From the human T2T-CHM13v2.0 reference genome, Homo sapiens, in NCBI RefSeq assembly GCF_009914755.1, contig NC_060939.1: 64,000 nt of DNA; one strand, 5' to 3'. Below, piece after piece: positions 13,600-36,109 of the stretch. The notes below the pieces were generated by a model that was not told the DNA's origin, did not search any database, and worked only from the letters and a program-made list of their open reading frames with translations. The first letter of the stretch is position 1. The number at the start of each line of letters is the position of its first letter. The position numbers and the translations under genes are program-made.

Positions 13600-14350
13600 A
13601 GCGAAATCCCCGCCCGCCAACTCCAAGGCGCTTGGATGCGAGCTCTGTGGGAAACAGCAGCGACGAGCAGAGGCTATTTTGGGTGTGGGAACGAGGAGGG
13701 AGGAGGGGCGGCGCCGCCAGGCTGGGCGCGGGTGCGCGGGGAAAGCCTCCAGCTCGGGCTGCCACGGCAACCGCGTCCAGGCAACGCGCCCGGAAGCGGC
13801 TCCGGCGGCGCGCGGCGGCTCGCGCCCCCCGGGAGCCGCGAACCCGGCCGGGCCGCGCGCCGGGCCAGGCGGCAGGCGCGCGCTGATTGGACGGCGCTCC
13901 CCGCGGCGCGGGCCCGCAGCCGGGCGCCCTGCTCAGCCAGCGCCAGCGGCCGCCGCACCCAGCCGCGCCGGCGAGGACATGGGCAGCCGCGGCGCGCCCA
14001 CCCCCCGCGCCGGTGAGTGCCGCGCTCTGGGAACCCCGGCCGGGCGGCCTCTGGGGCTGGGCGGCGGGAGCTCTCTGGGACGGCCGGTGACCTTGGGGCA
14101 GCCTCTCAGGAGATAGGCGTGGGGTAGAGAGAGCTGCGCGTGGCCCATGTGACATGCCGCGGGCGAGAGGGTTAACTGCATGTGACGCGAAGGGCTGAAG
14201 TTGGGCACAGAGCGCAACTGGCGTTGCATTTTCGCGGGGGCTGCATGCTAGCGAACCAACCGACGCCCGGAGGGACTGTTTGGGGGAGCTGGGGTGGTGC
14301 ACGGATTGCCAGGGGTAAAGGCGAGTCAGCCGACCCACTACTCAGAGTGA
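13600..14350. promoter_or_regulatory. FAM81A: CpG island / FAM81A promoter
   Basis: Very GC- and CpG-rich stretch (core about 13690-14280) in otherwise CpG-poor DNA. Contains a reverse CCAAT (CTGATTGG 13883-13890), an ETS core (CCGGAAG about 13790), GC-box-like motifs (about 13433 and 13705) and X-box-like motifs (13758-13785); a GTGAGT donor lies at 14013. Confidence 0.9.
13915..14012 (+). other. FAM81A: FAM81A exon 1 (5' UTR; start coordinate is an estimate)
   Basis: Consensus donor CCG|GTGAGT at 14012/14013 inside the CpG island, just downstream of the CCAAT box. The TSS cannot be fixed from sequence alone. Confidence 0.75.
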
Positions 14351-14824
14351 GTGACCTTGGGTAGGTTAACCATCTGCTCTTCCGCCCCTTCGCTTTTTCT
14401 CATCTTTCAAACGAGAGGCTAGGGGGTCTTTGCAGTTCCAGAATGCTGTTGTGCCATCCTACTGCGAGCTGAGAAAGAGCCCTAAAGTACGGTTCTGCAG
14501 GTACCGGAGATGCAAAGCTTAACCATGTTTATTCTAGGAGGGGTTTCCATTAATTGGCTCCTAAAGTGGTAAGAAATGTTATCGTTGTCTGGAAGATTAT
14601 GGAGCAAGCAGTCGGTGGTCCGGAGAATGGCTTCTTAAGATGCACAGGTTAAAACCTCTTTGGTGCCCTAAAGACATGAACAAAATCAGGATTAATGCTC
14701 CTAAGTTCTTCTTTCCTGTAGTTAATCTAATAGGAAACTTTGTATTTGAACAGGTAAAATCAAAACCCAATCGTGGCAGGCAGCAGCAAATTAAGTGAGT
14801 CATTTCTTCAATGTGCACGAGGTT

Positions 14825-15139: not shown

Positions 15140-15901
15140 TGGGGGGGGCGGGTTCCTTGGCACTTATAATATTTTTAGCGTTGACTGGTACTAAAAAGGA
15201 CACTTAGGCCCCCTTCCATATCCACTGTCTATAAACTTCCCTCTTCCACGGAGGGGAATGGAGGACGTACCCTCTCACAGGTACCCCTGGTTGCCCCTTC
15301 TGACTTTCTACTTAAAGCTACCCTTGATTTTCATTCGAATCTGATTTCATCTGTATAAGAACGTGGGTTGGGAAGACACAGTTTCCAATGCTAATGAATA
15401 AGCTTCTGCAAGCTTGTTTACCTGAGGGCTTAATAACCTTTAATGTGTTACATGTTAGAAATCTGATAGCATACGGATAGAAAAATACTCAGTGTCCAGG
15501 AATTCAACCATGAAGCCCTACCAACCATTTAATGAGCCACACTACATGGTGCTTGGAAACCTTATTAGCGCATTATTCAGCCTCCTCTCTCTGCAGGCCA
15601 CTAGGCTGTGTCACTCCGACCTGGCTTTAAATGTCTTGTTTCTTGTATCCTGCAGCCACACTCTTGCATTTTCATTTTTTCTGTAGCTGAACCCACCTTC
15701 TCTCCCGAGCACCAGAGCCTGAGTGAACAACTTGCCGCAGAAGAGCCTTCTCTAGTGTCCTCCACCGTCTCACCAGAGTAGGGATGCTCTTCCGCTTCTC
15801 CTTAGTGCTGCCTCCAAACCAATGCACCATCACCAACCAAGTCTCCTCTCGGAAGGTAGTGCTATCTGCTTGTGCCCCTACCCTCCTTCTTATCTTCTGG
15901 T

Positions 15902-33296: not shown

Positions 33297-34299
33297 TAGT
33301 CTATATGGCAGAAATGCTTCTCTTTGACACTGAAGAACTCTTTGGGCACCATAGCTTGTTTGGCATGAATGACTTTTTTTTCCTTAAATGTAATTTGTTT
33401 AAAGTTCTTTGTCTAAGAAAATGAAATGTGCACATTTTGAAACTCCAAAAATAAAACACTAGAGAGATGACGCCAAAACAGTGATTTCAATCAGAAATGC
33501 TTTCTGAATCCAGCATCTAAATGAGAATTAATTATGGAATCAGATCATAGTTAGTAGGCATTCATTGTTTTAAGGCAATTGATAGCAGTATTGAGGAACC
33601 TAAATAATAAAGTATTTTAAACATCCTCTAGTGTTTTTCACATTTCTAATGAGTTGTGGGGACCAAATGTTCCTTATATGCAAGATGAAATATGAATGAT
33701 TGTATCTTATTATAAAGTTTTCAAGTTCTAATGAGGAATATCTTTCTCACTCCCTTGGTGGATAGATATCTTCCCACAAATCAGATCACATTGATCATGT
33801 GCTGTTTTATTTGAGATTAATTTAGAAATAAGTGCTCTTCATTTACCATGGAATTAGTAGTAAAAGTTTTCTGAGATCAAATTTACTGAGGTAGTTTCCT
33901 GCAAAATTCTACAGAGAAGTATAAGATTGGATAAGCCTATTAAACACTCTAGTTTCTGTTAAAAGTGGTTTCTCAAGCTTGAGATGCAGATTTGGAGTGA
34001 GGAAACTTCAGGAAACTCCATTGTACAGTCCCTGTTGGTCTGTCTTGCAAGGCTTAGCAATATTAATTTCAGAAGAGCTTTGATTTTGCTTGATTGCTTT
34101 TCTTCTTATTTGGAAACATATGCTGTTTATTTCATATATAAGATACAAAACATTTAATAATATAACTTATCAGTGTTTCAACATAATTTATGATCCACTT
34201 AGCAACTTAATAATAAGCTTTTGAGGTTAAGTTCTAGATATAAACTGTTAAATAATTTAGTGCTTATTTTTTCAACAGATGTGAATTATTAAAAAGAAA

Positions 34300-34374
34300 A
34301 TGGCCCAACGGAGCACTGTATTTCCTTCTCGTGTCACCAAGGAAAGGTATAATATATGGAAAATATGCATCTAA
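34300..34374 (+). other. Overlapping uORF, MAQRSTVFPSRVTKERYNIWKICI* (or alternative CDS start)
   Basis: AAA ATG G (strong Kozak); 24 codons, out of frame with ATG 34356, stop TAA 34372-34374. Confidence 0.75.
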
Positions 34375-34375
34375 G
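34356..34375 (+). CDS. FAM81A: FAM81A CDS start, MENMHL(R)
   Basis: ATG GAA AAT ATG CAT CTA AG| ends in phase 2 and joins G CGA GTG AGA of exon 3, giving MENMHLRRVRTM, the FAM81A N-terminus as I recall it. Confidence 0.88.
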
Positions 34376-34656
34376 GTATACTTTTCCTTTCCACTCATCC
34401 CATGGGGGCTGCTAGTGGGTGTGATAGTTACAAATCAAAGCTTGGGCTGTTACATTATCAGAGAATGGTTTTGTTCAAGGGCAAGAGAAGCACTATTGTG
34501 TCCTCTAGCTTTCAATTTATAGGATACTGTGGACCACTCAGTGACCCCAAGAAGTAGAGATTTCACAGTAGTCCTACAGTAGACTTGAATTTCCTGTTGA
34601 GAGTGAAATATAACTCCGGGGGCTTCAGGCTAACATCCCTGTTAAGCTTTTTAAAT

Positions 34657-35566: not shown

Positions 35567-36109
<543 letters not shown>

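What the first reader, a model, noticed from the sequence alone, without database searches (positions are those of the whole stretch)
34300..34380. Twin splice donors switch one AUG between an inhibitory uORF and an alternative FAM81A N-terminus
Seen: exon 2 has two almost identical donors, AAG|GTATAA (34346/7) and AAG|GTATAC (34375/6), 29 nt apart. With the distal donor, AUG 34300 (AAA ATG G, strong Kozak) opens a 24-aa out-of-frame ORF that runs over both Met1 (34356, T at -3) and Met4 (34365) and stops at 34374. With the proximal donor, Met1/Met4 are removed and the 34300 frame ends in phase 2 (GAA AG|), exactly like the canonical frame, giving [24 protein letters not shown]..., 9 aa longer. 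Inference: one 5' splice-site choice could set both translation efficiency and the N-terminus. The best Kozak context belongs to the 'uORF', so it may be the older or major start. Phase agreement alone has a 1-in-3 chance, and this isoform may already be annotated.
Basis: partly seen in the sequence, partly recalled or inferred. Interest (0 to 1): 0.8.

Follow-up and report, generated by a model that had tools for sequence, protein, structure and literature searches.

The report
FAM81A twin donors hide ancestral start
Two splice sites 29 bases apart in the human synaptic gene FAM81A decide whether the protein begins at its ancient start codon, shared from sharks to mammals, or at a newer start listed only for placental mammals, in which case the old start opens a short overlapping reading frame; the isoforms are already in gene catalogues, so this is a tidy but fairly ordinary case.

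Summary
Exon 2 has two donors, AAG|GTATAA (34346/7) and AAG|GTATAC (34375/6). With the long exon, AUG 34300 opens a 24-codon out-of-frame ORF over Met1 and Met4. With the short exon it reads in frame into exon 3.

New here: AUG 34300 is the ancestral FAM81A start. A 16-residue M...ER N-terminus followed by exon-3 sequence heads 40 of 126 FAM81A protein clusters. These are marsupials, birds, squamates, tuatara, coelacanth and "isoform X1" of 11 placental entries. It also heads 8 of 22 fish, shark and caecilian entries. MENMHLR/MHLR starts (16 of 126) are all placental. So the proximal donor is the old exon boundary, and the RefSeq Select start looks like a placental addition.

That the uORF inhibits, and that donor choice is regulated, remain inference. 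No read, ribosome or peptide data were reachable. The leader also has a strong-context exon-1 uORF ending 7 nt before AUG 34300. A 13-bp pre-mRNA stem pairs the two donors. Human has Arg where 39 of 40 relatives have Leu. Both exon forms are already annotated, and no paper describes the switch.

The parts
13916..14012 (+). Exon 1 of NM_152450.3 (5' leader, 86% G+C), donor CCG|GTGAGT
   Evidence: Hub annotation; sequence
13979..14012 (+). First part of uORF1: AUG 13979 in GAGGAC ATG G (G at -3, G at +4). The ORF has 15 codons and crosses the exon 1/2 junction
34279..34292 (+). Second part of uORF1. Its stop TAA 34290-34292 lies 7 nt before AUG 34300
34279..34284 (+). Start-stop ATG TGA at the first bases of exon 2 (weak context, C at -3, T at +4, when joined to exon 1)
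34279..34346 (+). Exon 2, short form (proximal donor): the ancestral exon boundary
   Evidence: Hub annotation (other transcripts). In some searches all 40 M...ER peptides end at ER, followed by exon-3 sequence in 36 and by another exon or acceptor in 4
34279..34375 (+). Exon 2, long form (distal donor), used by RefSeq Select NM_152450.3
   Evidence: Hub annotation
34300..34346 (+). Ancestral start codon and N-terminal coding segment: 15 codons (MAQRSTVFPSRVTKE) plus AG of a split Arg codon
34300..34374 (+). 24-codon overlapping uORF of the long form (MAQRSTVFPSRVTKERYNIWKICI, stop TAA 34372-34374)
34330..34332 (+). Codon 11, CGT (Arg) in human. Leu in 39 and Val in 1 of 40 relatives
34344..34352 (+). 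Proximal 5' splice site AAG|GTATAA. U1 duplex -5.7 kcal/mol
34347..34375 (+). 29-nt alternative segment carrying Met1 (34356-34358) and Met4 (34365-34367). It encodes MENMHL plus AG of a split Arg codon
   Evidence: MENMHLR or MHLR starts occur only in placental entries
34373..34381 (+). Distal 5' splice site AAG|GTATAC. U1 duplex -5.7 kcal/mol. GTATAC is a palindrome
34339..34351 (+). 5' arm of a 13-bp pre-mRNA stem (AAGGAAAGGTATA). It covers the proximal donor from -8 to +5
34377..34389 (+). 3' arm of the stem (TATACTTTTCCTT). It covers +2 to +14 of the distal donor and is intronic
34381..34392 (+). 12-nt pyrimidine run CTTTTCCTTTCC just after the distal donor
   Evidence: sequence. Any protein binding is inference
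35662..35935 (+). Exon 3, the common acceptor for both donors. It has in-frame AUGs at 35675 (AGAACC ATG C) and 35702 (CTGACC ATG G)

Best explanation
FAM81A exon 2 is an alternative-5'-splice-site exon whose two forms use different start codons. Proximal donor (34346): AUG 34300, in the best initiation context of the leader, reads 15 codons plus a split Arg codon into exon 3. This gives the ancestral, gnathostome-wide N-terminus and a protein 9 residues longer than the RefSeq Select product. Distal donor (34375): 29 more bases enter the mRNA. They bring in Met1 and Met4 (the MENMHL... start seen only in placental entries) and shift the 34300 frame. The ancestral AUG then opens a 24-codon ORF that runs over both new starts and ends 1 nt before the exon junction. 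Shown: the anatomy, the ancestry of the start and of the proximal boundary, and the equal weakness of the two donors. Inferred: in the long form, ribosomes that start at 34300 are lost to Met1 and Met4, so the long form should make less protein per mRNA and may be exposed to NMD. Ribosomes reach Met1/Met4 or the downstream AUGs 35675 and 35702 by leaky scanning, or by reinitiation after the exon-1 uORF, whose stop is too close (7 nt) to 34300 for efficient reinitiation there. Donor choice would thus set both the N-terminus and the translational yield.
For: Anatomy. Annotation: the hub lists both exon forms.

Ancestry: of 126 FAM81A clusters found with exon 3 (92, 34), 40 carry a 16-residue M...ER peptide. 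By the names these are 11 placental, 5 marsupial, 4 bird, 19 squamate or tuatara and 1 coelacanth. All 5 marsupial entries are 377 aa, which is 368 + 9. Marmot has both forms, 384 aa and 375 aa, again differing by 9. The peptide is followed by exon-3 sequence in 36 of the 40 and by another exon or acceptor in 4 (Lagopus P0060, Pogona P0085, P0086, P0088). That places an exon boundary right after ER. Human identity is 14/16 to pig, 12-13/16 to marsupials, 8-9/16 to sauropsids and 6/16 to coelacanth. The same peptide, judged by eye, is in 8 of 22 further FAM81A or FAM81A-like entries: sturgeon, paddlefish, bowfin, bichir, 2 caecilians and 2 sharks. It is in 0 of 20 FAM81B entries. MENMHLR (11) and MHLR (5) starts are all placental, elephant included.

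Donors: both have the same weak U1 complementarity, -5.7 kcal/mol, against -10.5 for exon 1 and -10.1 for exon 3.

Context: the initiation contexts are. Overlapping out-of-frame uORFs in good context lower main-ORF translation in the cases tabulated in PMC3738444 (passages). Deleting residues 1-36 of FAM81A cut condensate number by about 90% in PMC10919877 (passages), so the N-terminus matters.
Against: No RNA-seq junction, ribosome-footprint or peptide evidence for either form in human could be reached.

RefSeq Select uses the distal donor, so the short form may be minor in human.

The human peptide has Arg at position 11, where 39 of 40 relatives have Leu and 1 has Val. It has Lys at position 14, shared only with the shrew. 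This fits relaxed constraint on the old N-terminus in the human lineage.

None of the primate cluster representatives carries the M...ER start. Clustering at 90% identity could hide such isoforms.

FAM81A is absent from the supplements of two Ribo-seq ORF papers (5 files searched, file 3 not read; 7 files).

The claim that the distal form is placental-only rests on what is annotated in other species, not on their DNA.

The regex used fixes or limits columns 1-5 and 15-16, so only columns 6-14 are free evidence of conservation.

The exon-1 uORF (G at -3, G at +4) may divert most ribosomes before they reach 34300, which would weaken the proposed repression.
Confidence: 0.7

Rival explanations
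1. Relic plus constitutive dampener. In human, and perhaps all primates, the distal donor has taken over. The short form is low-level splicing noise, the old N-terminus is decaying, and AUG 34300 now acts only as a fixed overlapping uORF that lowers FAM81A output. There is no regulated switch.
For: RefSeq Select uses the distal donor (hub annotation). Human has Arg at position 11 where 39 of 40 relatives have Leu, and Lys at position 14. No primate representative carries the M...ER start. The two donors have equal weak U1 pairing, so some use of the proximal one is expected even without regulation.
Against: The human ORF is intact, keeps the best initiation context in the leader and stays in phase. 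Both forms are kept side by side in marmot, and the M...ER form is listed in carnivores, pig, shrew and chinchilla, so the two forms coexist widely in placentals. The short exon is annotated in human (hub).
Confidence: 0.3
2. The uORF is largely bypassed. On exon-1 transcripts most ribosomes translate the 15-codon uORF1 and resume scanning. They cannot reinitiate 7 nt later at 34300, so they start at Met1/Met4 in the long form, or at AUG 35675/35702 in the short form. AUG 34300 would then be neither a strong repressor nor a major start. Donor choice would mainly decide between MENMHL-type and N-terminally shorter products.
For: uORF1 AUG 13979 has G at -3 and G at +4, and its stop at 34290-34292 is 7 nt before AUG 34300. 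AUG 35702 has an optimal ACC ATG G context. The need for distance to reacquire ternary complex is the principle behind the ATF4 arrangement (PMC3738444, passages).
Against: This is inference only, since no reinitiation efficiency is known for this leader. If 34300 were rarely used, its conservation as the annotated start in about 48 entries of other species would be hard to explain, at least in those species. Whether uORF1 exists outside human was not testable. Other annotated leader exons have different uAUG sets.
Confidence: 0.2
3. Coincidence. The upstream AUG and the phase match are chance (1 in 3), and the short exon is a cryptic-donor artefact with no coding meaning.
For: The twin 9-mer is not significant on its own (2 found, 1.11 expected, 31 of 100 shuffles with at least 2). 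Phase agreement has a 1-in-3 prior.
Against: The encoded peptide is conserved from sharks to mammals and is the only annotated start in marsupials, birds and most reptiles.
Confidence: 0.02

Closest known systems
Thrombopoietin (TPO/THPO) 5' leader: overlapping uORF 7 and the intron-3 splice-donor mutation of hereditary thrombocythaemia (PMC3738444, passages read)
   Same: A uAUG in good context opens a uORF that extends past the main start and represses it. A change of splicing removes that overlap and fuses an upstream ORF in frame to the coding sequence, giving a novel N-terminus and more efficient translation.
   Different: In TPO the splice change is a pathogenic mutation that skips an exon, and the fused uORF is not the ancestral start. 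In FAM81A both donors are natural and annotated, the shift is 29 nt within one exon, and the ORF that gets fused is the ancestral coding start. Repression is measured for TPO and only inferred here.
ATF4-type two-uORF leader with delayed reinitiation (PMC3738444, passages)
   Same: A short first uORF is followed by a second uORF that overlaps the main start codon in another frame (long form with exon 1).
   Different: Here uORF1 ends only 7 nt before the second uAUG. Reinitiation at the second uORF should therefore be poor under all conditions rather than tuned by eIF2 activity. No stress response was tested.
Alternative 5' splice sites that produce N-terminal proteoforms or change uORF content (a general class; recalled, no single paper read for it)
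   Same: Two competing GT donors share one acceptor. The outcome differs in the start codon used and in 5'-leader ORFs.
   Different: In this case the reference (RefSeq Select) start is the derived one, and the gnathostome-old start survives inside the same transcript as an overlapping uORF.
Hairpins that sequester a 5' splice site, such as the MAPT exon 10 stem-loop (recalled from memory, not checked in any call)
   Same: A local stem covers the -8 to +5 positions of a weak donor.
   Different: Here one 13-bp stem holds both competing donors on opposite strands. No mutational or conservation evidence exists, and the significance is modest.

Membership tests
Alternative 5' splice site (A5SS) exon | Two GT donors in one exon that share the same upstream acceptor and downstream acceptor | tested here: met
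   AAG|GT at 34346/7 and at 34375/6. The hub annotation lists exons 34279-34346 and 34279-34375.
Alternative 5' splice site (A5SS) exon | Both junctions observed in RNA from the organism | not testable with these tools
   No RNA-seq data were reachable. There is only the hub's RefSeq transcript table, and Gnomon isoforms of both kinds in marmot.
Upstream overlapping ORF (uoORF) | AUG upstream of the annotated start, in a different frame, with its stop downstream of the annotated start | tested here: met
   AUG 34300, stop 34372-34374, Met1 34356, Met4 34365, frame offset 56 nt. This holds for the long form only.
Upstream overlapping ORF (uoORF) | Ribosome occupancy or initiation at the uAUG | tested here: inconclusive
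   FAM81A and the peptide string are absent from the supplements of PMC10032668 (5 files; file 3 not read) and PMC11788427 (7 files). The human-brain Ribo-seq paper is not held.
Upstream overlapping ORF (uoORF) | Lowers translation of the main ORF | not testable with these tools
   Inferred from the A at -3 and G at +4 context of 34300 against the T at -3 of Met1, and from the tabulated cases in PMC3738444.
Conserved (ancestral) coding start / N-terminal proteoform | In frame with the downstream coding exons after splicing | tested here: met
   the short form stays open through exon 3 (107 codons read to the end of exon 3).
Conserved (ancestral) coding start / N-terminal proteoform | Encoded peptide conserved across species and annotated as the start in orthologues | tested here: met
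   40 of 126 clusters plus 8 of 22 non-amniote entries. It is the sole form listed for marsupials (5 entries, 377 aa).
Conserved (ancestral) coding start / N-terminal proteoform | Peptide evidence in human | tested here: inconclusive
   No paper in the library holds the tryptic or N-terminal strings.
ATF4-type delayed-reinitiation leader | Second uORF overlaps the main start out of frame | tested here: met
ATF4-type delayed-reinitiation leader | Spacing between uORF1 stop and uORF2 AUG long enough for reinitiation at uORF2 when ternary complex is plentiful | tested here: not met
   Only 7 nt (34293-34299) separate them. It is therefore not filed as a member.
U12-type (minor) intron | 5' splice site RTATCCTT and a TCCTTAAC-like branch site close to the 3' splice site (consensus recalled) | tested here: not met
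   The distal donor GTATACTT has A, not C, at +5. The proximal donor is GTATAATA. The only TTAAC lies about 25 nt before the 3' splice site, which is preceded by a pyrimidine tract and CAG.

The most novel reading that the evidence does not exclude
Placental mammals turned the FAM81A start region into a two-state device. A new donor 29 nt downstream, held in one pre-mRNA stem with the old donor, lets neurons choose between two products. One is the ancestral proteoform. The other is an mRNA in which the 450-million-year-old start codon (age recalled, not from any call) has become an overlapping uORF that throttles a remodelled N-terminus. Because residues 1-36 are needed for FAM81A condensation, donor choice would tune both the amount and the phase-separation behaviour of a postsynaptic-density scaffold. 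The reference start codon used in all functional work so far would then be the derived one.
Probability: 0.2. Interest if true: 0.6.

Novelty: new member of a known kind. Interest (0 to 1): 0.4.

Why it matters
FAM81A is a recently characterised postsynaptic-density protein whose first 36 residues are needed for condensate formation (PMC10919877, passages). That work used a mouse cDNA (NM_029784.2). Its antibodies were raised against residues 86-225 and 262-368, so they cannot tell N-terminal proteoforms apart.

If the ancestral N-terminus is still made, it is an untested variant of a functionally important region. It is 9 residues longer and carries four basic residues against one acidic in human.

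If it is not made, the reference transcript carries a strong-context overlapping uORF. Variant interpretation in the 5' leader should then take that uORF into account.

For annotation, this is a clear example in which the selected start codon is lineage-specific while a much older one lies 56 nt upstream.

Tried and rejected
1. Chance. The twin 9-mer count is not significant, so chance was rejected only on the conservation evidence.

2. U12-type intron. The distal donor looks like RTATCCTT at 8 of 9 positions, but it fails at +5 and the branch-site spacing is wrong (consensus recalled).

3. Tandem duplication as the origin of the second donor. No direct repeat covers the two 29-nt segments. 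One search found only one unrelated 9-nt direct repeat.

4. Processed pseudogene as a fossil of the exon 2/3 junction. Exon 3 matches only itself in the window's own genome.

5. Ribo-seq catalogues. No FAM81A entry in the supplements of PMC10032668 (file 3 unread) or PMC11788427. The Nat Neurosci 2022 brain Ribo-seq paper is not held. There is no mention in the main text of PMC13577902, and its supplements were not tried.

6. Literature. 107 papers mention FAM81A. None of them also holds 'uORF'. Two hold 'splice site', and both only give gene lists or expression changes. No paper holds the peptide strings. One search's top 20 had none with FAM81A.

7. Human or primate database entries with the long N-terminus. 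None is visible among the cluster representatives of 50-2000 aa. Cluster members could not be listed, so this stays open.

8. Whole-exon fold. The 142-nt fold is not more stable than shuffles (z +0.38, 129 of 200 as good). Only the local stem stands out.

9. Cross-species DNA for exon 2, the 29-nt segment and the stem. No vertebrate genome or alignment is reachable with these tools.

Full report
**1. Observation**

- Exon 2 begins after CAG at 34279.
- Two donors, AAG|GTATAATAT (34346/7) and AAG|GTATACTTT (34375/6), lie 29 nt apart.
- AUG 34300 sits in AAGAAA ATG G.
- With the long exon it opens a 24-codon ORF (MAQRSTVFPSRVTKERYNIWKICI). That ORF runs out of frame over Met1 (34356, T at -3) and Met4 (34365, A at -3, C at +4) and stops at TAA 34372-34374.
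- With the short exon it reads 15 codons plus the AG of a split Arg codon, then continues in frame through exon 3. The protein is 9 residues longer than the RefSeq Select product.

The twin 9-mer is not significant as a count: 2 matches in 64 kb, 1.11 expected, and 31 of 100 shuffles give at least 2. Phase agreement is 1 in 3. The hub's annotation lists both exon forms, so the alternative junction is already catalogued.

**2. What it is: the ancestral start**

I searched the protein database with the exon-3 translation. This gave 92 clusters of 161-2000 aa and 34 clusters of 50-160 aa, all FAM81A. Their N-termini were read and classed.
- **M...ER start:** 40 of 126 carry a 16-residue peptide of the form MAQRS.........ER. 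By the names these are 11 placental entries, 5 marsupial, 4 bird, 19 squamate or tuatara, and the coelacanth.
  - The placental entries are marmot, hyena, two bears, fishing cat, mink, chinchilla, pig, panda, fur seal and shrew, mostly "isoform X1". Pig reads MAQRSTVFPSLVTEER.
  - The marsupial entries are all 377 aa, which is 368 + 9, and no other complete marsupial form is listed (P0033 is a 362-aa truncated entry).
  - Birds read MAQRSPIFPTLAPSER. The coelacanth reads MSHRSSILPPLAPFER.
- **MENMHLR or MHLR start:** 16 of 126 (11 and 5). All are placental: primates, horse, elephant, bat, rodents and muntjac.
- **Rest:** 33 begin at the internal MPRH, 2 at MAPYS, 6 at MQNKGG, and 29 are otherwise truncated or are run-through ORFs on genomic contigs (one search shows three of these).

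The marmot has both forms, 384 and 375 aa, again 9 apart.

In 36 of the 40 the peptide is followed by exon-3 sequence. In 4 (one grouse isoform, three bearded-dragon isoforms) it is followed by a different exon or acceptor. This places an exon boundary immediately after ER, which is the human proximal donor.

The regex constrains columns 1-5 and 15-16, so only columns 6-14 are free. Of those, column 8 is F, L or Y, and column 11 is Leu in 39 and Val in 1.

A third search, with the coelacanth protein (159 hits, 120 listed), added 22 named non-amniote FAM81A or FAM81A-like entries. By eye, 8 of them carry the same 16-residue M...ER peptide:
- sturgeon, MSRRSTSFPSPASFER
- paddlefish
- bowfin, MSRQGPHLPPLTVFER
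- bichir
- two caecilians, e.g. MIQRPSLFPSLVPVER
- two sharks, e.g. MLHRGTTLPKLTVTER

The other 14 are partial, truncated or start differently. None of the 20 FAM81B entries has the peptide.

AUG 34300 and the proximal donor are therefore the ancestral start and exon boundary of FAM81A, at least as old as jawed vertebrates. The MENMHL start with the distal donor appears only in placental annotation. "Major" is not supported for human, because RefSeq Select uses the distal donor.

**3. The rest of the leader**

On the RefSeq Select transcript there are two more.
- AUG 13979 in exon 1 (GAGGAC ATG G, G at -3 and G at +4) opens a 15-codon uORF. It crosses the exon 1/2 junction and stops at 34290-34292, 7 nt before AUG 34300.
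- The first six bases of exon 2 are a start-stop, ATG TGA.

Downstream in the main frame there are further AUGs at 35675 (ACC ATG C) and 35702 (ACC ATG G). The sauropsid proteins have no Met at either place (RVRNIPLH......LTAVPL...).

Other annotated leader exons carry many uAUGs of their own.

**4. The donors**

Both donors match the consensus only from -2 to +3. Their best duplex with the U1 5' end is equal: -5.7 kcal/mol each, against -10.5 for the exon 1 donor and -10.1 for the exon 3 donor. Of the 3,541 GT sites on the + strand, 8.8% do as well. This is a crude measure, and the U1 motif was recalled. MaxEntScan and SpliceAI were not available. Two equally weak donors mean that context should decide between them.

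Folding shows a 13-bp stem (12 Watson-Crick pairs and one G-U). It pairs 34339-34351, which is the proximal donor from -8 to +5, with 34377-34389, which is +2 to +14 of the distal donor. The stem loops out 25 nt that hold Met1, Met4 and the uORF stop.
- The 61-nt segment folds at -14.5 kcal/mol, against -7.73 +/- 2.32 for shuffles (z -2.92, 0 of 200 as good). The segment was chosen after I had seen the stem.
- Among 2,994 overlapping windows of the same 64 kb matched for G+C, 1.9% fold as well and 12 have an uninterrupted helix of 13 bp or more.
- The 142-nt exon context as a whole is unremarkable (z +0.38).

The 3' arm is intronic, so the stem can act only on the pre-mRNA. A 12-nt pyrimidine run (34381-34392) follows the distal donor. 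Whether the stem or the run affects donor choice is untested.

**5. How it most likely works**

Shown:
- Donor choice decides which start codons are in the mRNA and what AUG 34300 encodes.
- The proximal form recreates the ancestral protein.

Inferred:
- In the long form, ribosomes that initiate at 34300, the best context in the leader, translate 24 codons past Met1 and Met4 and are lost to them.
- The uORF stop lies upstream of the remaining exon junctions, so it could also expose the mRNA to NMD.
- Met1/Met4 would be reached by leaky scanning, or by ribosomes that translated the exon-1 uORF and resumed scanning. These cannot be expected to reinitiate only 7 nt later at 34300.
- After the 24-codon uORF, reinitiation could occur at 35675 (14 nt on) or 35702 (41 nt on, optimal context).

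I put 0.7 on this overall picture: about 0.9 for the anatomy and ancestry, and about 0.5 for real repression.

Rivals are the following.
- In human the short form is noise, the old N-terminus is decaying, and 34300 is a fixed dampener (0.3). This is supported by Arg at position 11, where 39 of 40 relatives have Leu, by Lys at position 14, and by the RefSeq Select choice.
- The exon-1 uORF shunts ribosomes past 34300, so that it is neither a strong repressor nor a major start (0.2).
- Coincidence (0.02), which refute.

**6. Comparison with what is known**

The closest worked example is the thrombopoietin leader. There, uORF 7 in good context overlaps the main start and represses it. A splice-donor mutation removes that uORF and fuses uORF 5 to the coding sequence, giving a new N-terminus and higher translation (PMC3738444, passages). 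FAM81A would be a natural, annotated version of this in which the fused ORF is the original start.

The long-form leader also resembles ATF4, with a short uORF followed by an overlapping out-of-frame uORF (same paper). It fails the spacing feature (7 nt), so I do not file it there.

A U12-type intron was considered because of GTATAC and rejected.

**7. Novelty and what is in print**

Both exon forms are annotated in human (hub), and the long-N-terminus protein is annotated in many species. The switch and uORF reading, and the point that the reference start is the derived one, were not found in print.
- 107 papers mention FAM81A.
- None of them also holds 'uORF'.
- The two that hold 'splice site' are irrelevant.
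- No paper holds the peptide strings.

The one functional study, PMC10919877 (passages only), used mouse cDNA NM_029784.2. Its antibodies were raised against residues 86-225 and 262-368. It found that deleting residues 1-36 cut condensates by about 90%. Its S5 Fig aligns mammalian, bird and reptile sequences, but it is a PDF that I could not read.

The finding is a new member of a known kind. Interest is moderate (0.4): a neat, testable case with some relevance for FAM81A biology and for start-codon annotation, but not surprising in kind.

**8. Limits**

- No RNA-seq, ribosome-profiling or proteome data were reachable, and no vertebrate DNA other than this genome.
- The placental-only claim and the primate question rest on annotation and on 90%-identity cluster representatives.
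- Supplements of the brain Ribo-seq work could not be seen, and one file was not read.

Noticed in passing
window 34339-34351 and 34377-34389: A 13-bp pre-mRNA stem pairs the proximal donor (-8 to +5) with +2 to +14 of the distal donor and loops out the 29-nt alternative segment. The 61-nt fold is -14.5 kcal/mol (z -2.92, 0 of 200 shuffles as good). 1.9% of 2,994 G+C-matched windows fold as well, and 12 of 2,994 have a helix of 13 bp or more. The distal donor GTATAC is itself a palindrome.
   Followed up: partly
window 13979-14012 joined to 34279-34292; also 34279-34284: Exon 1 carries a uAUG in strong context (GAC ATG G). Its 15-codon uORF crosses the splice junction and stops 7 nt before AUG 34300. 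Exon 2 opens with a start-stop ATGTGA. Conservation was not testable.
   Followed up: partly
proteins P0127-P0171, not in the window: FAM81A-type proteins exist in sharks, rays, chimaera, bichir, sturgeon, gar, bowfin, elopomorph teleosts, coelacanth and caecilians. In a quick ML tree of 33 rows that I chose from the 171 proteins fetched, 21 FAM81A-type and 12 FAM81B rows split with SH-aLRT 100, and cartilaginous fishes (Callorhinchus among them) lie on both sides. The A/B duplication therefore seems to predate jawed vertebrates. PMC10919877 (passages) calls FAM81A higher-vertebrate-specific and dates the duplication to 300-100 Mya. The tree has no outgroup, is midpoint-rooted, and the careful search did not finish.
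   Followed up: partly
window 34330-34332 and 34339-34341: The human ancestral-frame peptide has Arg (CGT) at position 11, where 39 of 40 relatives have Leu and 1 has Val. It has Lys at position 14, where relatives have E, T, S or A and only the shrew shares Lys. The branch on which these changes arose could not be determined.
   Followed up: partly
window 35675-35677 and 35702-35704: The two in-frame AUGs early in exon 3 (MPRH..., MAPY...) are Met in placental and marsupial proteins. They are Ile/Leu/Phe and Val in sauropsids (RVRNIPLH, LTAVPL). Therian mammals thus gained possible downstream starts, and 33 of 126 database entries begin at the first one.
   Followed up: no
window 14007-14360, 14086-14360, 14386-14794, 15687-15855: The other annotated leader exons carry 1 to 10 uAUGs each when joined directly to exon 2. 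These include ORFs of 104-117 codons that run into exon 3 out of frame. How these exons are actually connected is not known to me.
   Followed up: no
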